Part shown: positions 14,292 through 49,351 of the stretch, piece after piece
Position numbering within the stretch: position 1 is the stretch's first letter
Layout of the letters: each line of letters starts with the position of its first letter
Virus record (IMG/VR): IMGVR_UViG_3300045988_108312
DNA length: 56,568 bases
DNA from: a virus
Strand: one strand, 5' to 3'
Translations under genes and position numbers: made by a program
Notes under the pieces: model-generated
Databases searched by the model: none
The model's input: only the letters and a program-made list of their open reading frames with translations
What the model was told of the DNA's origin: nothing

Positions 14292-14557
14292 AAATTCAGT
14301 ATTTACAAGGGTTTCAAGACTTTTCGTAATGGTATTAAAGAGTACGGAAAATTAATATTTTGCGAATAGTTAACATACGTTCGATTGATGGCATGAACCT
14401 GGCAGGCAGGGGGAGGGGGTCGGAAGAACGGACGAGACAGCCCCTACTAAGTCAGCAAAACTACCCGATAAACAAAAAGCCCTTATCCAACACACAGATA
14501 TTAATTATCCAGACACACTATTTCTAAAAATTTTTCAAAAATAAAAAAAGGAGTCAA

Positions 14558-14698: not shown

Positions 14699-14701
14699 GC
14701 C

Positions 14702-14872
14702 GTGTTAATCTTCGGCAAGCAAATCACAGACGAGTGTTCAAAATGCGGTCAAGTCTTAGAATGTGAGTTATTCAGACAAGGTCATGGCATTAAATGCGAC
14801 AGGCAGAACATATCAAAGATGCTGGAATGCCAATTTGAACACAGGGAGAAGAGAGAAAATGCGAATAATTAG
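14702..14872 (+). CDS. Small Cys-rich (zinc-ribbon-like) 56-aa protein
   Basis: GTG start 8 nt after AAGGAG; CSKC...C..C pattern. Confidence 0.45.
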   Translation: MLIFGKQITDECSKCGQVLECELFRQGHGIKCDRQNISKMLECQFEHREKRENANN

Positions 14873-15143
14873 CCAGAAAAGAGATTTGTCGGTAGATTTT
14901 GAGAGTACGCCTATATCCGTAAATTACAATCATTTATTGGCACTTGTAGGAGATAAGGAACGTGTTATAGGGCAGTATGAAACGCCAGAACGTGCAAGGG
15001 AAGTATTTGACGAGATTAACGATTTTTATAATCCTATTGACATTCGATCTCTTGATGCAATAGGACTTATGCAAACTATGAGCGCCACAAAAAGAGAGTT
15101 ACAGGTCTTAAACAGAAATATATACGAAATTCCAAAGGAGTAA
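14859..15143 (+). CDS. Hypothetical 94-aa protein (paralogue of 47634..48008)
   Basis: ATG 14859 after GGGAGAAGAGAG; MRIISQKRDLSVDFES...YETPERAREVFDEI versus MRVISQDGTIDIPYDS...YSSEEKAKKAMEML. Confidence 0.65.
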   Translation: MRIISQKRDLSVDFESTPISVNYNHLLALVGDKERVIGQYETPERAREVFDEINDFYNPIDIRSLDAIGLMQTMSATKRELQVLNRNIYEIPKE

Positions 15144-15145
15144 TT

Positions 15146-15232
15146 ATGGACAATGTAAACCATCCAAGCTATTACAACTTATCAAGCAACGAAAACGGGC
15201 AGAGTAGGTTCGACTCCTACCGTTGCTATTAG
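15146..15232 (+). CDS. 28-codon ORF with a DUF3310-like N-terminus (MDNVNHPSYYN) that stops inside the tRNA-like minihelix; a truncated or interrupted gene
   Basis: Good RBS AAAGGAG 6 nt upstream; VNHPS(H/Y)Y is the hallmark start of DUF3310 phage proteins (from memory); the rest of that domain is not found downstream. Confidence 0.4.
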   Translation: MDNVNHPSYYNLSSNENGQSRFDSYRCY

Positions 15233-15660
15233 TCCTGTTTTCAGCATTTTGGACAGGACGCACACACTATTTACCTTTTCTTCCGAGATAGGTATGTAAT
15301 CTCCTCTACACCAGTTAGGACTACTGTTAAGGGCGGTGAGAGACCGTCCGACTGGTATCGGTCGAGTGAAATTCCACAACACTTGACCGCTTGGTGAAAC
15401 CCCGAACCATAGCTTACGCAGATATGACCGTTACAGTCGGATTCCCCTTTACTTAATAATTCTTAGTGGTAATAGCTTAAATAGTTACTACGCGAGTAGT
15501 AGATGTGTGGCGGAATGGGTAAACGCAAGCAAAGAAACTGATTGATAGCATGTTTGCCGAGTAATAAGCGGAGACTGTCCGTAATTAGCAACAAGCAGCT
15601 TTCAGAAATCAATCATGTGAGGTTCAAATGAGTATCAACCACCATCTAAAGAAGCGTTGA
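15182..15660 (+). ncRNA. Candidate large structured RNA (unknown class) beginning with a tRNA-like acceptor/T-arm minihelix
   Basis: No + strand ORF. Minihelix: AGCAACG (15185-91) pairs CGTTGCT (15221-27); T arm GTAGG-TTCGACT-CCTAC. Hairpins 15232-59 and 15331-49. Long-range helix 15346-63/15426-42. GCGA tetraloop hairpin 15485-502. Visibly higher GC than the flanks. Confidence 0.5.
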
Positions 15661-15801
15661 GAAATTTCGGCATAAATATTTCAAGAGAAATTTTAGATTA
15701 TTTTAGCGTTCCGAATATTCAGCCTGATAAGATAAAAACAACCGAATTTCCAGAATGGTCATGCCAATATAATCAAGAACCGATTGAGAGAGGTGTTGAG
15801 A

Positions 15802-16200
15802 ATGAAAAGAATACTTAAAATTGTAGCAAAGACATTAATTGAATATGCCAGAATAATTGCTATTTGCTTTGTGGCTTGCGTAATAGGAGCAATTTTTTAT
15901 ATTTTGTTAGGCAAAACAGCATATGCGTGCTATTGGATAGCGGTTATTTTGCTTGTGATTATCAGAGATATAACGATAAAGTCAAAAATGCAGGAAAGCA
16001 AAAAGATTAAATTATTACTTTTACAGTATGAGGACGGCAGTACAAGTTTGTGCGTCGGGGATAAGCAAATTAGGCATATGACAAATATTGATATGCATAT
16101 TGATAAGCTTCAGACAAAACTGGAAGTAGACCAAGTAACAAAAACTGGGAAAGTAACACATGTTGTTTTAATGGACGGTGGGAAGAATGAAGATAATTAG
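15802..16200 (+). CDS. Membrane protein (2 TM helices plus a soluble C-terminal domain)
   Basis: ATG 15802 after GAGAGGTG; IIAICFVACVIGAIFYILLG and YACYWIAVILLVII hydrophobic helices. Confidence 0.65.
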   Translation: MKRILKIVAKTLIEYARIIAICFVACVIGAIFYILLGKTAYACYWIAVILLVIIRDITIKSKMQESKKIKLLLLQYEDGSTSLCVGDKQIRHMTNIDMHIDKLQTKLEVDQVTKTGKVTHVVLMDGGKNEDN

Positions 16201-16369
16201 AGAGGGCAGTTTGGAATTTGCTAAGAAACTTATTCGCTTTGAGTGTAAGGAATGTAAGACCATATTTGAAGCGGATAAGGGAGAATATGAATATTGCGGA
16301 TGCCAGATTGAAGGTGACGAATGGAAAGCTGAATGTCCATTGTGCCACAATACGGTTTATGCAAGATAG
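16187..16369 (+). CDS. Small zinc-ribbon protein
   Basis: ATG 16187 after GGTGGGAAGA; CKEC...CGC...CPLC. Confidence 0.55.
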   Translation: MKIIREGSLEFAKKLIRFECKECKTIFEADKGEYEYCGCQIEGDEWKAECPLCHNTVYAR

Positions 16370-16387
16370 GAAAGAGAGGAAAGATTA

Positions 16388-16933
16388 ATGAAAAATAACT
16401 GGAAAATGGGATTAATAATTGCATCAGGAGTAATAGCGGTCATTGCTTTGTACATATTTGGGGTTCAGAGTTCGCAGAATAAGGCTTTTGTTTTGGAAGA
16501 AGCTGTAGACTCTGCAAAATCTGATATTAGTGTGCAGGAACAACGAAGAGTTGACCTAGTTTACAATCTTGCAGATTGTGTAAAACAGTATGATAAGCAT
16601 GAAGCAGAAACATTAAAAGCTATCGTAGCTGGTCGTGGCTCTACAGGAGATATTGAAAATGCCACAACAGCTATTACAGCGGTTTCAGAAGCATACCCAG
16701 AACTAAAAAGCAATGAAAATTATAAGCAGTTTATGAACGAATTATCTATTACAGAAAATCTGATTGCACAGTACCGGGAAAACTACAATAAGCAGATTAG
16801 AGAATATAAAAGATATGTCAGGAAGTTTCCCACAAGAATGTTTTTGGATATGTTGGGATATGAGGAACGGGAATACAAGTATCTTGAATATGATGCCCCA
16901 GAAAAAGCACCGCAAAATCTATTTGGAGATTGA
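16388..16933 (+). CDS. lemA: LemA family membrane protein
   Basis: N-terminal TM then QRRVDLVYNLADCVKQYDKHEAETL...AYPELKSNENYKQFMNEL..TENLIAQYRENYNKQIREYKRYVRKFP, a typical LemA layout. Confidence 0.85.
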   Translation: MKNNWKMGLIIASGVIAVIALYIFGVQSSQNKAFVLEEAVDSAKSDISVQEQRRVDLVYNLADCVKQYDKHEAETLKAIVAGRGSTGDIENATTAITAVSEAYPELKSNENYKQFMNELSITENLIAQYRENYNKQIREYKRYVRKFPTRMFLDMLGYEEREYKYLEYDAPEKAPQNLFGD

Positions 16934-16935
16934 TT

Positions 16936-17697
16936 ATGAGTAATTTTGAGATAACCAAAAGGGAAATACTTGCAAGCATCACTATTGTTGCTATCATGTT
17001 ACTTTTCGGTGTATTGATTTCAGAGAAAATATCAGAAAGCCAGGCAGATGAAAATGATATGTATAACAAAGCAATTCATATTGAATCTACAGATATTTTC
17101 CAATATGGAATGAACACAAATGTAGGTAACGCCTTTGTATATGGAGACTTGAAAGCAGTTGACACGGTTGCATATCCAGAAATAGGCGGCGAATACATTT
17201 ATGTGAAAAAAGTAGAAGAAAGATACGAAAAGCATGAAAGAGAAGTAACTAAGACAGATTCTAAGGGAAAAAAATATACGAAAACCGAAGAATACTATCG
17301 GTGGGACACATACGATTCAGAATCTTTACAGTCAGAAAAAGTCTCTTTCCTTGGAATAGTATTTCCGTGTGCTAAAATTAATTTGCCCAGTGCAGATTAT
17401 ATAACAACTATAAACGGTGGAAAAACATACAGTTGGAAATCTGGGGAATATGTAAAAGTAAAATTTGTTTACTATGGCATAGGAACAGAATTTATAGGAA
17501 CTATATTCACAGATTTGAGAGACGGAACAATTTCAGATAAAACAAATTTTTACAATGGATTATCTATTGACGATACGATTAACATATTGGAAACAAACGG
17601 AAAAATTGGAATTGTTTTGTTTTGGATTTTTTGGATTATCTTAACAGGGTCTTGCGTATTTGGATTTTACTATTTGGATAATGCATGGATTGAATAA
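16936..17697 (+). CDS. Membrane protein with N- and C-terminal TM helices flanking a ~200-aa domain (GIDE-like architecture, the type often paired with LemA)
   Basis: ATG 16936 lies 6 nt after GGAGA (the track TTG 16930 abuts the RBS); ILASITIVAIMLLFGVLI ... IGIVLFWIFWIILTGSCVFGFYYL. Confidence 0.6.
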   Translation: MSNFEITKREILASITIVAIMLLFGVLISEKISESQADENDMYNKAIHIESTDIFQYGMNTNVGNAFVYGDLKAVDTVAYPEIGGEYIYVKKVEERYEKHEREVTKTDSKGKKYTKTEEYYRWDTYDSESLQSEKVSFLGIVFPCAKINLPSADYITTINGGKTYSWKSGEYVKVKFVYYGIGTEFIGTIFTDLRDGTISDKTNFYNGLSIDDTINILETNGKIGIVLFWIFWIILTGSCVFGFYYLDNAWIE

Positions 17698-17747
17698 AAT
17701 AAATTAAAAATAATTTAGTTGTTGATTATCAGCGGAAAAGAGATTTT

Positions 17748-18119
17748 ATGAAAAAAATTTTTAAAACCATTATTCCCATTATTGTTATTGTTGTTAGCAT
17801 TGTTGCACTGATATTATTTTTAAATTGGGCTAATAAAACCAAAAAATACGAATATGAAATAGAAGAGATACAAAGTGGTATTTATGTTAGATACCAAATT
17901 ACAGCTTCATGTACGCCAGCTTACAACTATGAGATAATTACAGTTTGCATAAATGGACGACTGATAACCTACAAGGGAAGCGTTGAATTTATTTTTGTAG
18001 AAAATGAGAACAAAATCGAAGTCACAGAAAAACCTAATATGGTTCATGGCGATAAAGTCATTGTCTATACTTCAAAAGACAGTGTCGAATACTTAGGAAC
18101 TGTAGAAATTGGCAAATAA
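17748..18119 (+). CDS. Small membrane-anchored beta-rich protein
   Basis: N-terminal TM IIPIIVIVVSIVALILFL; weak RBS. Confidence 0.6.
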   Translation: MKKIFKTIIPIIVIVVSIVALILFLNWANKTKKYEYEIEEIQSGIYVRYQITASCTPAYNYEIITVCINGRLITYKGSVEFIFVENENKIEVTEKPNMVHGDKVIVYTSKDSVEYLGTVEIGK

Positions 18120-18203: not shown

Positions 18204-19976
18204 GTGTCCTTTTTGGCAAGTAAGGATTTAATAAACCAGTTAAAAGGTAATGACAATTACATAGAGCGAAAAGGAATCCATAACATTGTTAAAAATGGGG
18301 AATCCGAAGAAGTAATAAATGCCTATGTCAATTCTATACAGTGGGGTATGTATAATGACAAAGACATACCATTCTCACTGGAAATTTCCAATAAAACAAA
18401 GAAATTAATAGACAGCATAGTTGCGGAAAGCACAGGCGGCGGTCATATTGACGATTTAGAGATATACTGCGGAGATAATAACGCCGAATTTTTAGTCTTA
18501 AATAACTACTATGAGGTATTAAGACTGGAATCCGCATACCTGGTAGACAGCTTTTTCCGATATATTGAGATTGACGAAAAAGACCCATACAAGAGATTTT
18601 ATTTTCCGAGAAAGAAAGTATTACAGCCAGTTGTAGGTGCTTACCAAGAAATATATGACGGTAAACTTGATTTTCTGTCCGTATCACAGCCTAAACGTAC
18701 TGGAAAAACTACAGGCGGATTGCGACTTGCTATGATGATGGGCGGTCGTGACCCGGATGGCAGTATATTTGGCGTTGGTAAAGGAGAAGGACTTGTTAAG
18801 CGATTTTATGGCGGTTTGTTACAAGGATTTGAAACAGAAAGCACGTACAAAAGATTCTTAAGTGTTTTCCCAGAAGCAACGAAGATAGGAGAAAATTACA
18901 AGAGTGCTGAAAATCTTTCAATTGACCTTAAAAAGAAAAATATATTCCCGACATTCACTTGTAGACCTATAGACGGTGCCATTGTAGGATGTACCGAAGC
19001 AAATGTTCTTGTATACATTGACGACTGCGTAAAAAACCACGAAGAAGCAAGGAATCGTGACCGCCTGGAGTTCCTTTGCGAAAAGGTTACGGATGATGTA
19101 CTTGGACGTAGATTAGAGGGTACGCCTATTATTATACAGGGAACTAAATACAGTCTGTATGACCCGATTACAGCACTACAGAATAAAGCTGATGAATTGG
19201 AGTGGAGATGGAAAGAGGTTGCGATTCCGGCGCTTGACCCGATCACAGATGAAAGCAATTGGGAGATTTATCGAAAAGATAAAAAGGGATTGCGGAAGAT
19301 ATTCACAACCGTTTACTACCAAAAGGAAAGAAAACTTGTTTCGGAAGAAACGTGGGCGGCAGAGTTCCAACAAGAACCATTTGAAGCAAAAGGGCGAATG
19401 TTTGCAGAGAATGAGCTTAATTACTTTGAAGAATTACCAATTGACAGAGAACCAGATGCGATCATGGCGGCTTGCGATAGCGCAGATAAGGGAGAAGACA
19501 GTTGCTCAATGCCTATTGGTTATGTATACGGAAATGAGGTTTATATCGTAGATGTAGTGTTTGACAACGCCGGAACACAGTTTACCAAGCCGGAATGCGC
19601 AAATATGCTTATTAAGCACAACGTAAAGACGGTGACCTTTGAAAGCAACAGTGCAGGAGAATATTTCGGACGTGATGTAATGGAGCTTGTTAAAAAACTG
19701 GGTGGAAGATGCAGTGCAAGGTTTAAATTCAACTGTACTAACAAGATAACCAGAATGGAAAACGCTAGAGATAATATCATCCGTGATTATTATTTCAGAG
19801 ATTTTAAGAAAATGGACAGGCAAAGTCAGTATTACAAATTCATGAAAGAACTTACGACCATAACAAGAAGTGGAAAAGTAAAGCATGATGATGCACCGGA
19901 CTCTATAGCATTGTTTGAGAATGAAATGAGAAACGGTGGTATTAAGACAACTGTTATTATGCAAAGTCCTATTTAG
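18204..19976 (+). CDS. terL: Terminase large subunit
   Basis: Walker A SQPKRTGKTT, Walker B VLVYIDD, C-terminal RNaseH-like nuclease (ACDSADKGED...HDDAPDS). Start is GTG 18204 or, better spaced from GGAGG, TTG 18213. Confidence 0.9.
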   Translation: MSFLASKDLINQLKGNDNYIERKGIHNIVKNGESEEVINAYVNSIQWGMYNDKDIPFSLEISNKTKKLIDSIVAESTGGGHIDDLEIYCGDNNAEFLVLNNYYEVLRLESAYLVDSFFRYIEIDEKDPYKRFYFPRKKVLQPVVGAYQEIYDGKLDFLSVSQPKRTGKTTGGLRLAMMMGGRDPDGSIFGVGKGEGLVKRFYGGLLQGFETESTYKRFLSVFPEATKIGENYKSAENLSIDLKKKNIFPTFTCRPIDGAIVGCTEANVLVYIDDCVKNHEEARNRDRLEFLCEKVTDDVLGRRLEGTPIIIQGTKYSLYDPITALQNKADELEWRWKEVAIPALDPITDESNWEIYRKDKKGLRKIFTTVYYQKERKLVSEETWAAEFQQEPFEAKGRMFAENELNYFEELPIDREPDAIMAACDSADKGEDSCSMPIGYVYGNEVYIVDVVFDNAGTQFTKPECANMLIKHNVKTVTFESNSAGEYFGRDVMELVKKLGGRCSARFKFNCTNKITRMENARDNIIRDYYFRDFKKMDRQSQYYKFMKELTTITRSGKVKHDDAPDSIALFENEMRNGGIKTTVIMQSPI

Positions 19977-48011: not shown

Positions 48012-48662
48012 ATGAGTGAAAAATATTTGAGTATCATAACAAATTTTGGATGCCACGGGAAATGCCCATATTGCATTACCAAAACAAACAATATAGCAGT
48101 TCCCAAAACTACTATTGATGGATTGAAAAATTTGTATGGATATTTGCATCCTGTAAAGAAATACAATATAGTTTCTGTTTCTGGCGGCGGCGACCCTTTA
48201 TTCCAATATGAAAAAAACGTTGAGTGGTACAGAACTTTATTTAAGATTTTGGACGGTATTCCACTTGAAATGCATACAAGCTACATGACAGATGAAACTA
48301 CATTCCCTTTTTATGATTGCAAAAGAGTCGTATATCATCCGAACAGTTTTTCACAGTTACAGCATATTCACAGGACTGGTAACGAAAAGGTTAGAGTAGT
48401 CTATGTAGTAACAGAAGACTTTACGTTTGAAACGATAATGAACATAGCCTTGTTTGTGTCACAAAGCAAAGATATTGACGAATTGAGTTTTAGACAACTC
48501 GTAAAACCAGATTATGAGACTACAGATTACTGGCAAGATTTTCTTGAATTAGGTCACGAGAAACTCTGGTATTACATCAAACAGTGCGATTACAACGACT
48601 ATTATGCGGAGAATAAAATCTATTATCGGTTTTCAGATATTGGGAAAGAGGTTGAATCATGA
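48012..48662 (+). CDS. Small radical-SAM enzyme (orphan)
   Basis: CHGKCPYC = Cx3Cx2C cluster motif at residues 14-21; VSVSGGGDPL = SAM-binding GGE/D-P motif. Confidence 0.7.
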   Translation: MSEKYLSIITNFGCHGKCPYCITKTNNIAVPKTTIDGLKNLYGYLHPVKKYNIVSVSGGGDPLFQYEKNVEWYRTLFKILDGIPLEMHTSYMTDETTFPFYDCKRVVYHPNSFSQLQHIHRTGNEKVRVVYVVTEDFTFETIMNIALFVSQSKDIDELSFRQLVKPDYETTDYWQDFLELGHEKLWYYIKQCDYNDYYAENKIYYRFSDIGKEVES

Positions 48663-49351
48663 GATTACGCTGTCTAGCATCAGGCAGTAGCGGTAACTGC
48701 TACATACTAACAAATTCCAACTGTAAATCCCTTATTCTTGACTCTGGTGTATTGATTATGGATATCAAGAGAGGACTGGACTGGAACATCAGAAATGTGG
48801 TTGGGTGTGTGGTTTCACACATCCATAAAGACCACAGCAAAAGCGCAGACGCAATAGAAAAAATAGGTATTCCAGTATGGAAACCATACGAAGAAGAAAA
48901 TCCGAAGATGCAGAAATACGACAGTTTCACAATCCAGTGTTTCCAGTTGCCACATAACGGAACTACCAATTACGGATTTTACATCAAGGCAGACGGACAG
49001 AAGCTATTATACATGACAGACATGGAGTATTGTCCTTACAGTTTTAGGAAACAGGCGGTAGATCACATGCTGATTGAGTGCAACTACATAGCGGATATGG
49101 TGGACAGGGATATCCCAAATTACGAACATAAGATTCTAGGGCATTGCGAATTGGAAACTTGCAAAGGTATTGTAGAAACCAATAAGTCAGATGCATTGCA
49201 GAACGTCATATTGTGCCACACAGCGAAAGAAACTTGCGATAAGGATAGAATTATTGAAGAGATTCGTAAAATCGTTCCTAGTGCAAATGTGAGCGTTGCA
49301 CAGGGCGGTATGGAATGGGAACTTAGAAATGCGGATGAATGTCCGTTTTAG
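48659..49351 (+). CDS. Metallo-beta-lactamase-fold hydrolase (putative recombination exonuclease)
   Basis: SGSSGNCYIL...LDSG...VVSHIHKDH (HxHxDH). Confidence 0.8.
   Translation: MRLRCLASGSSGNCYILTNSNCKSLILDSGVLIMDIKRGLDWNIRNVVGCVVSHIHKDHSKSADAIEKIGIPVWKPYEEENPKMQKYDSFTIQCFQLPHNGTTNYGFYIKADGQKLLYMTDMEYCPYSFRKQAVDHMLIECNYIADMVDRDIPNYEHKILGHCELETCKGIVETNKSDALQNVILCHTAKETCDKDRIIEEIRKIVPSANVSVAQGGMEWELRNADECPF

What the first reader, a model, noticed from the sequence alone, without database searches (positions are those of the whole stretch)
15146..15790. ~0.5-0.6 kb ORF-free, densely structured RNA-like element starting with a tRNA-like acceptor/T-arm minihelix, wedged between terS and terL
What the sequence shows:
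- AGCAACG (15185-91) pairs perfectly with CGTTGCT (15221-27) around a canonical T arm, GTAGG-TTCGACT-CCTAC. Only 12 nt sit where the D and anticodon arms belong.
- Further helices: GTCCTGT/ACAGGAC (15232-59) and GGGCGGT-gagag-ACCGTCC (15331-49).
- A ~16-bp long-range helix 15346-63/15426-42 encloses GCTTGGT..ACCAtAGC.
- A GNRA (GCGA)-capped TTACTAC/GTAGTAG hairpin (15485-502), plus GCAAA/TTTGC (15529-57) and CGGA/TCCG (15569-81).
- GC content is visibly higher than in the flanks, and all three stop codons litter every + frame.

Immediately upstream, a well-initiated ORF begins MDNVNHPSYYN, the hallmark N-terminus of DUF3310 phage proteins. It stops after 28 codons inside the minihelix, as if the gene were truncated or interrupted by the element.

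Hypotheses:
1. A large ornate ncRNA of the GOLLD/ROOL kind. Those are prophage-borne, 0.6-0.8 kb and tRNA-associated.
2. An endonuclease-free group I-like intron splitting the DUF3310-like gene. I could not find the rest of that domain downstream, nor the P/Q/R/S core in the right order.
3. A new RNA class using a tRNA-like handle for RNase P, CCA-adding enzyme or EF-Tu.
Basis: partly seen in the sequence, partly recalled or inferred. Interest (0 to 1): 0.85.

Follow-up and report, generated by a model that had tools for sequence, protein, structure and literature searches.

The report
Decayed phage tRNA island, conserved RNA
The region is the decayed remnant of a gut-phage tRNA gene cluster, and it still carries one copy of a conserved folded RNA, absent from Rfam, that in every related phage examined sits just after a tRNA or a cut-down tRNA-like stub.

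Summary
It is a mosaic of five pieces.

1. 15146-15178: an 11-codon stub of a DUF3310 gene. Relatives carry the intact gene directly upstream of their tRNA array. This is a deletion scar, not a split gene.
2. 15185-15228: a tRNA-Ser(GCU) that has lost its D, anticodon and variable arms. This is the "minihelix".
3. 15229-15465: element "X", a 237-nt structured RNA.
4. 15466-15629: the 5' parts of two tRNA-like genes, cut inside a T loop at 15629.
5. 15630-15818: a 5'-truncated small protein gene.

X belongs to a family with no match in Rfam 15. The family occurs in at least 240 loci from human-gut and Lachnospiraceae phages. Its helices covary. In all 185 testable contexts X lies 30-135 nt downstream of a tRNA or a reduced acceptor/T-arm element, and reduced elements of at least six distinct forms occur at that position.

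The best reading is that X is cut out of the tRNA-array transcript by RNase Z and RNase P, with the minihelix kept as a processing handle. That step is inferred, and X's function is unknown. Membership of ROOL or GOLLD, a group I intron and tmRNA are rejected.

The parts
15146..15232 (+). Stub of a DUF3310 gene (MDNVNHPSYYN...). Only about 11 codons (15146-15178) are homologous to the intact genes; the reading frame then runs into the minihelix and stops.
   Evidence: tblastn finds intact DUF3310-like genes in L062, L070, L079, L080, L081 and L083. In L062, L070 and L079 the gene sits directly upstream of tRNA-Gln. They match Pfam PF11753 at E = 2e-18 and 6e-15. The remainder of the domain is absent from the whole window.
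15185..15228 (+). Internally deleted tRNA-Ser(GCU), the 'minihelix'. Acceptor stem 15185-91 with 15221-27, 12-nt linker, T arm 15204-20, discriminator A at 15228, no encoded CCA.
   Evidence: A full 85-nt tRNA-Ser(GCU) occupies the same position in L003, L005, L006, L012, L019, L021 and L034, with an identical or nearly identical T arm. The linker keeps GGGCAGA from the variable arm. Rfam tRNA scores 23.2 bits, below the gathering score of 29. ARAGORN finds nothing.
15229..15465 (+). Element X, a conserved structured RNA of the 'window-type' architecture. Features in order: hairpin 15232-59; hairpin 15272-94; pyrimidine tract 15300-07; helix Pa, 15310-15 with 15351-56; conserved junction TAGGACTACTGTTAA, 15316-30; hairpin Pb, 15331-49; hairpin 15362-86; helix 15389-94 with 15407-13; 3' tail.
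   Evidence: It is conserved in all close relatives. Its core is shared with short and long forms in more distant phages. Pa/Pb covariation: 95.6% of cells paired against 84.1% in shuffles, 0 of 500 shuffles as high, and 5 of 6 Pa pairs changed on both sides. MFE z = -2.7. No Rfam match.
15346..15442 (+). Alternative long-range 16-bp helix (15346-63 with 15426-42). It competes with the 3' strands of Pb and Pa.
   Evidence: RNAalifold on 18 window-type sequences predicts it. It has one compensatory double change (L286, G-C to A-U) and one G-U/A-U switch. Variation in this subfamily is too low to decide between the two folds.
15466..15501 (+). First 16 nt (GTGGTAATAGCTTAAA) of a tRNA-like gene that is complete in L002 and L004, followed by a GCGA-capped hairpin (15485-15502).
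   Evidence: Rfam calls a tRNA at 45.3 bits at L002 13031-13100 and L004 4600-4531. Homology with the window ends at 15481.
15502..15629 (+). 5' portion of tRNA-like element 'Y'. It has an acceptor 5' strand (GATGTG), a class-II-type D arm (TGGCGGAATGGGTAAACGC) and a long irregular arm, and it is cut inside its T loop (GTGAGGTTCAAAT|).
   Evidence: The complete copy in L001 ends ...GTGAGGTTCAAATCCTCACCACATCA. It folds with a 6-bp acceptor stem and a 6-bp T stem, z = -2.75. Window and L001 homology stops at 15629.
15630..15818 (+). 5'-truncated small protein gene (frame of ORF 15657-15818). The deletion junction lies at 15629/15630.
   Evidence: It is homologous to the 71-aa gene MKNIDNPLSEYQPPSKEAMINFGIDISRE... 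of L016 and L019. The window retains ...NEYQPPSKEALRNFGINISRE... without the start codon.

Best explanation
The interval is the degraded tRNA island of a temperate Lachnospiraceae-type gut phage. Related phages carry here a variable array of 2-7 tRNA genes, all on the + strand, upstream of terL.

In this phage two deletions reshaped the array. The left one fused codon 11 of the upstream DUF3310 gene to a tRNA-Ser(GCU) that has lost its D, anticodon and variable arms. The right one removed everything from the T loop of a tRNA-like gene to codon 9 of a small ORF; L001 carries about 1.7 kb, including tRNA-Ile(UAU), across that interval.

What survives between the two deletions is element X (15229-15465). 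X is a member of a conserved, covarying structured-RNA family that is not in Rfam.

Proposed mechanism (inferred, not shown):
1. X is co-transcribed with the array.
2. Its 5' end is made by RNase Z cutting after the discriminator of the upstream CCA-less tRNA or tRNA-like minihelix.
3. Its 3' end is made by RNase P cutting at the 5' end of the next tRNA(-like) element.
4. This releases a discrete stable RNA.

On this view the acceptor/T-arm minihelix is retained, after decoding function was lost, because it is the minimal substrate for these enzymes. What X does once released is unknown. I favour a trans-acting protein- or RNA-binding role over a cis-regulatory one.

In this particular window the downstream tRNA-like element is truncated, so 3' processing of X may be impaired.
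For: Shown:
- Relatives found through terL carry tRNA arrays at this site, whereas the window has no intact tRNA.
- The minihelix is colinear with full tRNA-Ser(GCU) genes and keeps pieces of them.
- Intact DUF3310 genes (PF11753) sit just upstream of tRNA-Gln in L062, L070 and L079.
- The homology breakpoints are at 15481 and 15629, and 15630-15818 is a truncated ORF.
- X helices covary. In the long form, 54 pairs are 98.4% paired, 15 pairs changed on both sides (0 of 500 shuffles reach this), and slid controls give 31-43%. In the shared core including the window, 5 of 6 Pa pairs changed on both sides.
- G-U pairs fall on the + strand, the strand of the tRNAs.
- Of 185 unique contexts with enough upstream sequence, 137 have an ARAGORN tRNA (Gln, Ile, Ser or Thr) 30-135 nt upstream and 47 have an uncalled acceptor/T-arm element. 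The one remaining context (L216) has a minihelix by eye.
- At least six different reduced forms occur at that position, with linkers of 12, 15 and 30 nt, two aberrant longer forms, and the L216 form.
- In the window's lineage the acceptor stem became fully Watson-Crick: 1:72 is A-U and 3:70 is C-G, against G-U wobbles in the full gene of L003.
- 526 of 543 array tRNAs lack an encoded CCA.
- In 161 of 173 contexts no further tRNA is called within 700 nt upstream of X beyond the adjacent element.

From established knowledge: CCA-less precursors in Firmicutes are 3'-processed by RNase Z, and acceptor/T-arm minihelices are cleaved by RNase P and tRNase Z.
Against: - There are no expression or end-mapping data, so processing is inferred from geometry alone.
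- Reduced and chimeric tRNA-like elements also occur elsewhere in these arrays, for example L001 2135-2088 and the L046 chimera. Decay is therefore common, and the 'retained handle' argument rests on a handful of independent events.
- Many sampled loci are closely related, so the counts overstate the number of independent observations.
- Some relatives have arrays with no detectable X (L062, L070, L079), so X is dispensable.
- One family member (L216) puts the minimal core directly in front of the terL start codon, with the Shine-Dalgarno sequence inside helix Pa. That points to a cis role.
- Within the window-type subfamily variation is too low to choose between the family fold (Pa/Pb) and the competing 16-bp helix.
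- The consensus scan reports no + strand promoter-like site upstream of or within the element and no terminator-like site apart from the T arm itself. That scan is weak evidence either way.
Confidence: 0.6

Rival explanations
1. Neutral debris. In this phage the whole interval, X included, is a functionless relic of a tRNA island that is being lost, and the minihelix keeps its shape only by chance of where the deletions fell.
For: - The window has lost every decodable tRNA.
- It carries two deletion scars.
- The element downstream of X is truncated.
- Deletion variants of X itself exist in relatives, for example L181, L183 and L035.
- Some relatives lack X altogether.
Against: - The X family is conserved and covaries across phages whose terL proteins are 83-96% identical to the window's, and across hundreds of metagenome loci.
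- The window's copy keeps every family-conserved feature and is 99.8% identical to that of L001 and L007, whose arrays are fuller.
- 185 of 185 contexts keep an upstream acceptor/T-arm element.
- The minihelix acceptor stem became better paired, not worse.
Confidence: 0.2
2. Cis-acting leader. The X core (helices Pa and Pb plus the conserved junction) regulates downstream late genes, for instance by masking a ribosome-binding site, by sensing a ligand or protein, or by making RNA polymerase resistant to termination. It would not act as a free RNA.
For: - In L216 the minimal core lies immediately upstream of the terL start codon, and the 3' strand of Pa (GGAGG) is the Shine-Dalgarno sequence.
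- X always points the same way as the packaging genes and lies in the interval between terS and terL.
- The window-type has two mutually exclusive folds, which is switch-like.
Against: - Only 1 of about 180 contexts places the core next to an ORF. In nearly all of the rest it is followed by tRNAs or tRNA-like elements, and terL is 2-4 kb away behind unrelated genes.
- No known riboswitch or leader model matches.
Confidence: 0.12
3. DNA-level element. The conserved core is a packaging (pac/cos) site or a recombination site rather than an RNA.
For: - It lies between terS-like and terL genes.
- The region is highly mosaic, with recurrent breakpoints.
Against: - Compensatory changes preserve the helices.
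- Many G-U pairs would be A-C mismatches on the other strand, which argues for a single-stranded RNA read from the + strand.
- The strict spacing from tRNA 3' ends has no obvious meaning at the DNA level.
Confidence: 0.04
4. Member of ROOL or GOLLD, or an endonuclease-free group I intron that interrupts the DUF3310 gene.
For: - The context is a phage tRNA island, like that reported for ROOL and GOLLD (PMC12286853).
- An ORF with a DUF3310 N-terminus ends inside the element.
Against: - No Rfam family other than tRNA reaches E<=10 in 14900-15700 (the remaining weak matches lie at 15767-15901), and none does on the longest X form.
- X is 237 nt.
- No second DUF3310 exon exists anywhere in the window.
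- Relatives have uninterrupted DUF3310 genes.
- X follows complete tRNAs in other phages.
Confidence: 0.02

Closest known systems
ROOL and GOLLD large ornate RNAs
   Same: They are structured non-coding RNAs encoded by phages and prophages, often next to or containing tRNAs, and their function is unknown (PMC12286853).
   Different: There is no sequence or structure match to their Rfam models even at E<=10. X is 60-330 nt depending on form, not 0.6-0.8 kb. Nothing suggests multimeric cage formation.
Phage T4 'species 1' and 'species 2' stable RNAs in the T4 tRNA gene cluster (from my own knowledge)
   Same: They are non-tRNA stable RNAs encoded inside a phage tRNA cluster, co-transcribed with the tRNAs and released by the tRNA-processing machinery. 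Their function is unknown.
   Different: The phage group and host are unrelated and no sequence relationship was tested. Obligate pairing with an upstream tRNA-like handle is not a described feature of the T4 RNAs.
tRNA-linked release of non-tRNA RNAs: E. coli 3'ETS(leuZ) spacer RNA, MALAT1/mascRNA, and the tRNA-miRNA (TMER) transcripts of murine gammaherpesvirus 68 (from my own knowledge)
   Same: In each case a tRNA or tRNA-like fold serves as a cleavage signal for RNase P, RNase Z or RNase E, which defines the end of an adjacent functional RNA.
   Different: Those cases are demonstrated experimentally, whereas here the mechanism is inferred from gene geometry. In this family the tRNA-like element lies 5' of the released RNA and is often a decayed decoding tRNA.
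Canonical tRNA-Ser(GCU)
   Same: The minihelix shares the T arm, the 3' acceptor strand and the discriminator with the full gene in L003, and its 5' acceptor strand differs from those of the full genes by one or two bases.
   Different: The D arm, the anticodon arm and most of the variable arm are deleted. It cannot decode, and it is below threshold for Rfam and ARAGORN.

Membership tests
tRNA (Rfam RF00005 / ARAGORN) | Full cloverleaf with D and anticodon arms, scoring at or above the family threshold | tested here: not met
   The score is 23.2 bits against a gathering score of 29, and the D and anticodon regions are collapsed to 3+3 nt. ARAGORN finds no gene, even in relaxed mode.
tRNA (Rfam RF00005 / ARAGORN) | 7-bp acceptor stem stacked on a T arm with a TTCRANY loop | tested here: met
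   15185-91 pairs with 15221-27 in seven Watson-Crick pairs. The T arm is GTAGG-TTCGACT-CCTAC.
ROOL / GOLLD | Match to the Rfam covariance model of the family | tested here: not met
   There are no hits at the gathering threshold in the window. There are none at E<=10 in 14900-16000 or on the long form in L064 4250-5400.
ROOL / GOLLD | Phage or prophage location near tRNA genes | tested here: met
   The window is a phage with terL, a serine recombinase and RecT. Relatives carry a tRNA array at this site.
Group I intron | Interrupts a gene whose exons rejoin into an intact reading frame or RNA | tested here: not met
   Only the first ~15 residues of DUF3310 are found in the window. Intact homologues have no insertion. 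The same RNA follows complete tRNAs elsewhere.
Group I intron | Conserved catalytic core (P3-P9, G-binding site) recognised by the Rfam group I intron model | tested here: not met
   There is no group I hit at E<=10. The helices found (Pa, Pb, Pd, Pe, Pf, Pg, Pc) do not follow the group I order.
tmRNA | tRNA-like domain enclosing a tag-peptide reading frame, detectable by ARAGORN or Rfam | tested here: not met
   ARAGORN reports no tmRNA in the window or in L001-L004. Rfam has no tmRNA hit.
DUF3310 (Pfam PF11753) | 60-residue domain scoring above the Pfam threshold | tested here: not met
   The 28-aa ORF gives no Pfam hit. Only ~11 codons are homologous to intact genes, which do score (E = 2e-18).
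Element X family (defined here) | Core of pyrimidine tract, Pa 5' strand, TAGGAC-N3-6-TGTTAA junction, Pb hairpin (GGRCGGT-GMGAG-ACCGTCC) and Pa 3' strand | tested here: met
   The window carries it at 15300-15356 in register with 32 other distinct core sequences. Pa pairs are kept through double changes.
Element X family (defined here) | Lies 30-135 nt downstream of the 3' end of a tRNA or tRNA-like acceptor/T-arm element on the same strand | tested here: met
   In the window the discriminator is at 15228 and TAGGAC begins at 15316, which is 87 nt. In the family, 184 of 185 contexts meet this by script and the last by eye.

The most novel reading that the evidence does not exclude
X together with its upstream tRNA(-like) element is a previously undescribed class of phage non-coding RNA. 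Its biogenesis depends on the host's tRNA-processing enzymes. Selection for that processing has repeatedly whittled decoding tRNAs down to bare acceptor/T-arm minihelices that serve only as cleavage handles, a bacterial-virus counterpart of mascRNA/MALAT1-type processing. The released RNA would then have a dedicated role in infection, for example binding a host translation or tRNA-metabolism factor.
Probability: 0.4. Interest if true: 0.75.

Novelty: new variant of a known kind. Interest (0 to 1): 0.58.

Why it matters
- If X is a real processed RNA, an abundant group of human-gut Lachnospiraceae phages carries an uncharacterised structured RNA family.
- The family gives a natural series of tRNAs reduced to their minimal processing substrates. 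That series makes it directly testable what RNase P and RNase Z need in vivo, and whether phages use tRNA folds as RNA-processing signals.
- It adds a compact, tractable member (60-330 nt) to the poorly understood set of structured RNAs in phage tRNA islands, alongside ROOL and GOLLD.
- For annotation, it shows that a stretch that looks like one ornate RNA can be a mosaic of pseudo-tRNAs, a true structured RNA and truncated genes.

Tried and rejected
- Rfam at gathering thresholds on the window found nothing. Permissive E-value scans of the window region, L001 and L064 found only tRNAs and noise.
- ARAGORN in standard mode and in relaxed, intron-allowing mode found no tRNA or tmRNA in the window.
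- BLASTN of 14700-16300 against 50,697 GenBank phage records gave no match.
- The group I intron idea was rejected because there is no second exon, relatives have uninterrupted genes, and the Rfam group I intron model does not hit.
- I considered, from memory of consensus sequences, resemblance to RNase P RNA, 5S rRNA loop E, the 16S 3' end and anti-Shine-Dalgarno sequence (the CCUCCUUUC tract), Y RNA/YrlA, T-box leaders, and pistol or hatchet ribozymes. None held up on order or pairing, and none is supported by Rfam.
- A possible pairing of the Pb loop with the 5' pyrimidine tract was not supported. L177 changes the loop without a compensating change.
- Literature searches on tRNA arrays or islands, phage structured RNAs and minihelices found no description of this element.
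- The core sequence was absent from the 200 of 408 supplementary files held for the human-microbiome structured-RNA survey PMC8040213.
- The first viral pattern scan and the genome scan returned many chance matches inside protein-coding genes. These were filtered out by requiring the Pb hairpin.
Full report
**Observation.** G+C rises to 0.46-0.47 across 15200-15499, against 0.32-0.40 in most of the flanks. Rfam's tRNA model aligns 15185-15228 through the acceptor and T arms only, at 23.2 bits against a gathering score of 29. ARAGORN finds no tRNA or tmRNA anywhere in the window. No Rfam family reaches its gathering score. Folding energy for the whole of 15146-15640 is not unusual, with z = -1.8 on the + strand and -2.0 on the - strand.

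The neighbourhood is a temperate phage:
- terL at 18204-19976 (PHROG terminase, E = 2e-40), a LemA-like gene and other small genes;
- a serine recombinase and RecT elsewhere in the window.

**Relatives show what the region was.** An exact search with the 3' half of the minihelix found four IMG/VR contigs that are 93-98% identical to the window. In L003 the minihelix position holds a full 85-nt tRNA-Ser(GCU) whose T arm, 3' acceptor strand and discriminator are identical to window 15199-15228. Eighty more loci were fetched through terL, at 83-96% protein identity. Nearly all carry, a few kb upstream of terL and on the same strand, a variable array of tRNA genes. The isotypes are Gln-UUG, Glu, Ile-UAU, Phe, Ser-GCU, Ser-UGA, Trp, Tyr, Met, Asn and Arg-UCU. 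The window has none intact, so the finding lies in a decayed tRNA island.

**Left edge: the DUF3310 stub.** The ORF at 15146 begins MDNVNHPSYYN. Relatives L062, L070, L079, L080, L081 and L083 carry intact genes (…DNVNHPSHYETGSFECIDVML…KAKWYIDKYIELSE). These match Pfam DUF3310 at E = 2e-18 and 6e-15. In L062, L070 and L079 the gene ends about 15 nt before the first tRNA. In the window, homology stops after about 11 codons, near 15178, and the rest of the domain is absent from the whole window. This is a deletion scar, not an intron-split gene.

**The minihelix is a degraded tRNA-Ser.** The 5' acceptor strand of the close allele in L002 and L004 (GGCAACG) is the 5' acceptor strand of the intact tRNA-Ser in L034. 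The linker retains GGGCAGA from the variable arm. A second, independent internal deletion of the same gene, with a 15-nt linker, is present in L008-type phages. In the window's lineage the acceptor stem is fully Watson-Crick: A1-U72 and C3-G70, where the full gene in L003 has G-U wobbles.

**Right edge: truncated tRNA-like genes and a truncated ORF.** Homology to L002, L003 and L004 ends at 15481, inside a tRNA-like gene that Rfam calls at 45 bits in L002 and L004. Homology to L001 ends at 15629. That position is inside the T loop of a tRNA-like element I call Y. In L001, Y reads GTGAGGTTCAAAT|CCTCACCACATCA and folds with acceptor, D-like and T arms plus a long irregular arm, z = -2.75. From 15630 the window continues in the middle of a small protein gene. 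L016 and L019 have the full 71-aa version, MKNIDNPLSEYQPPSKEAMINFG…; the window keeps …NEYQPPSKEALRNFG… without a start codon. So 15466-15629 consists of truncated tRNA-like genes, and 15630-15790 is protein-coding remnant, not RNA.

**The middle piece, X (15229-15465), is the interesting part.** It is conserved in all close relatives. Its core also appears in the more distant phages, always shortly after a tRNA. The core has, in order:
- a pyrimidine tract;
- the 5' strand of helix Pa;
- the junction TAGGAC-N3-6-TGTTAA;
- the hairpin Pb, GGRCGGT-GMGAG-ACCGTCC;
- the 3' strand of Pa.

The family has three main architectures:
- the window-type;
- a short form, in which a long hairpin Pc with the conserved loop UAUCCCAC follows directly;
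- a long form, with an extra ~110-nt domain (helices Pd, Pe, Pf, Pg).

A few copies consist of the minimal core alone.

*Covariation.*
- On 40 distinct long-form sequences, RNAalifold predicts 54 pairs, 15 of which have compensatory double changes.
- Counting on that structure gives 98.4% of cells paired, with 0 of 500 shuffles reaching the observed number of doubly changed pairs. Slid controls give 31-43%.
- On the shared core, with the window among 33 distinct sequences, Pa shows double changes at 5 of 6 pairs (CCAC/GTGG, CCAG/CTGG, CCAAC/GTTGG, CCTC/GAGG). Overall 95.6% of cells pair, against 84.1% in shuffles (0 of 500) and 26-52% when slid.
- The many G-U pairs place the RNA on the + strand.
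- X alone in the window folds with z = -2.7.
That helix overlaps the 3' strands of Pb and Pa and has one compensatory change, in L286.

*Distribution and databases.*
- No Rfam family matches X, even in permissive mode on the longest form.
- GenBank phages have no match.
- A genome scan found true copies only in Lachnospiraceae-type MAGs: two Roseburia, one Lachnospiraceae from water-deer caecum, and one unclassified Hadza gut MAG.
- A metagenome scan hit its 120-locus limit. The hits are metagenome assemblies, many labelled human gut, and many are 55-62 kb contigs.

**The tRNA link.** I compiled 197 unique contexts from 244 instances.
- ARAGORN finds a tRNA (Gln 91, Ile 42, Ser 5, Thr 1) whose 3' end lies 50-125 nt upstream of the core motif in 141 of them.
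- The contexts with no ARAGORN call that I inspected, among those with enough upstream sequence, still have an acceptor/T-arm element at the same distance. The forms are the window's 12-nt-linker minihelix, the 15-nt-linker form, a tRNA-Ile lacking only its anticodon arm (30-nt linker), two forms with aberrant interiors, and a minihelix in L216.
- With stricter bookkeeping, 137 of 185 contexts have a called tRNA and 47 have an uncalled tRNA-like element. The single context the script left over (L216) has a minihelix by eye.
- In 161 of 173 contexts no further tRNA is called within 700 nt upstream of X beyond the adjacent element, and 526 of 543 array tRNAs lack an encoded CCA.

**Interpretation.** The decomposition of the interval into five pieces is well supported; I put it at about 0.9. 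For mechanism, I propose that X is co-transcribed with the array and released by two cuts. RNase Z would cut after the upstream discriminator, which is the expected route for CCA-less precursors in Firmicutes (established knowledge). RNase P would cut at the next tRNA(-like) 5' end. The minihelix, which is the minimal substrate for both enzymes (established knowledge), would be retained as the processing handle. This is inference from geometry and from recurrent reduction without loss; I put it at about 0.5. In this window the downstream element is truncated, so X may not be correctly 3'-processed.

**Rival explanations.**
- Neutral decay.
- A cis-regulatory leader. In L216 the minimal core abuts the terL start codon and Pa contains the Shine-Dalgarno sequence. 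That is 1 of about 180 contexts.
- A DNA-level site. The G-U-rich, strand-specific covariation argues against it.
- ROOL or GOLLD membership, a group I intron, and tmRNA are all rejected by direct tests.

**Comparison and novelty.** X lives like ROOL and GOLLD, as a structured RNA in a phage tRNA island (PMC12286853). It may be made like the T4 species 1/2 RNAs or other tRNA-linked RNAs. It is not a member of any family I could test. I found no description of it in the searched literature, but those searches were limited. I rate it a new variant of a known kind, of moderate to good interest.

Noticed in passing
L057 4028-4101; L070 2670-2741; L079 3248-3319: Some relatives encode a tRNA with anticodon UUA, which ARAGORN labels 'tRNA-Stop'. 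In L057 it occupies the position of tRNA-Gln(UUG) and its anticodon loop reads TTTTAAT where the tRNA-Gln genes have TTTTGAT. It looks like an ochre suppressor derived from tRNA-Gln, and might point to stop-codon recoding in these phages.
   Followed up: no
L001 2432-2260 (- strand); L027 ~2390-2530; window 15502-15629 (truncated copy): Recurrent tRNA-like elements ('Y') that ARAGORN and Rfam do not call. They have a 6-bp acceptor stem, a class-II-type D arm (GGCGGAAUnGGUAnACGC), a T arm, discriminator A, and a 75-100-nt irregular arm in place of the anticodon and variable arms. The acceptor strands covary between types (GATGTG/CACATC against AGGTGG/CCACCT). L046 looks like a 5'/3' chimera of the two types.
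   Followed up: partly
L216 715-780: In a Lachnospiraceae MAG from water-deer caecum, the minimal X core (Pa and Pb only) sits directly upstream of the terL start codon. The 3' strand of Pa (GGAGG) serves as the Shine-Dalgarno sequence, and a tRNA-like minihelix lies just upstream.
   Followed up: partly
L002 6961-7030 (- strand of the locus); L004 5806-5887 (- strand of the locus): Close relatives carry a type II hammerhead ribozyme (63.6 bits) and a RAGATH-27 RNA (77.1 bits, just above its gathering score). Neither is found in the window. The RAGATH-27 copy lies in a ~1-kb insertion of L004 relative to the window, near 14532-14548.
   Followed up: no
window 15630-15818: A small ORF has lost its first ~9 codons and its start codon to the deletion at 15629/15630. 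It overlaps the start of the next gene (ATG at 15796). It may be a pseudogene, or it may restart at the TTG at 15657.
   Followed up: partly
window 15796-18119: Between the tRNA-island remnant and terL lie five small genes, several of which look membrane-associated from their sequences. They are a 134-aa protein, a zinc-ribbon protein (phrog_2834), a LemA-family protein (PF04011, E = 3e-30; the PHROG annotation is 'virion structural protein'), phrog_3886 and a 123-aa protein. They look like an inserted accessory module rather than packaging genes.
   Followed up: no
L183; L181; L035 (X region of each): Deletion variants of X itself exist. L183 joins the 5' strand of Pb to the 3' strand of Pc. 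L181 breaks off inside Pb. L035 keeps only the core, followed at once by tRNA-Glu. This region is a hotspot for short deletions and recombination.
   Followed up: no
window 48012-49351: Adjacent genes have weak matches to radical SAM (E = 2e-6, below threshold) and to the metallo-beta-lactamase fold (Lactamase_B_2, 29.2 bits against a cut-off of 27). Their function was not examined.
   Followed up: no
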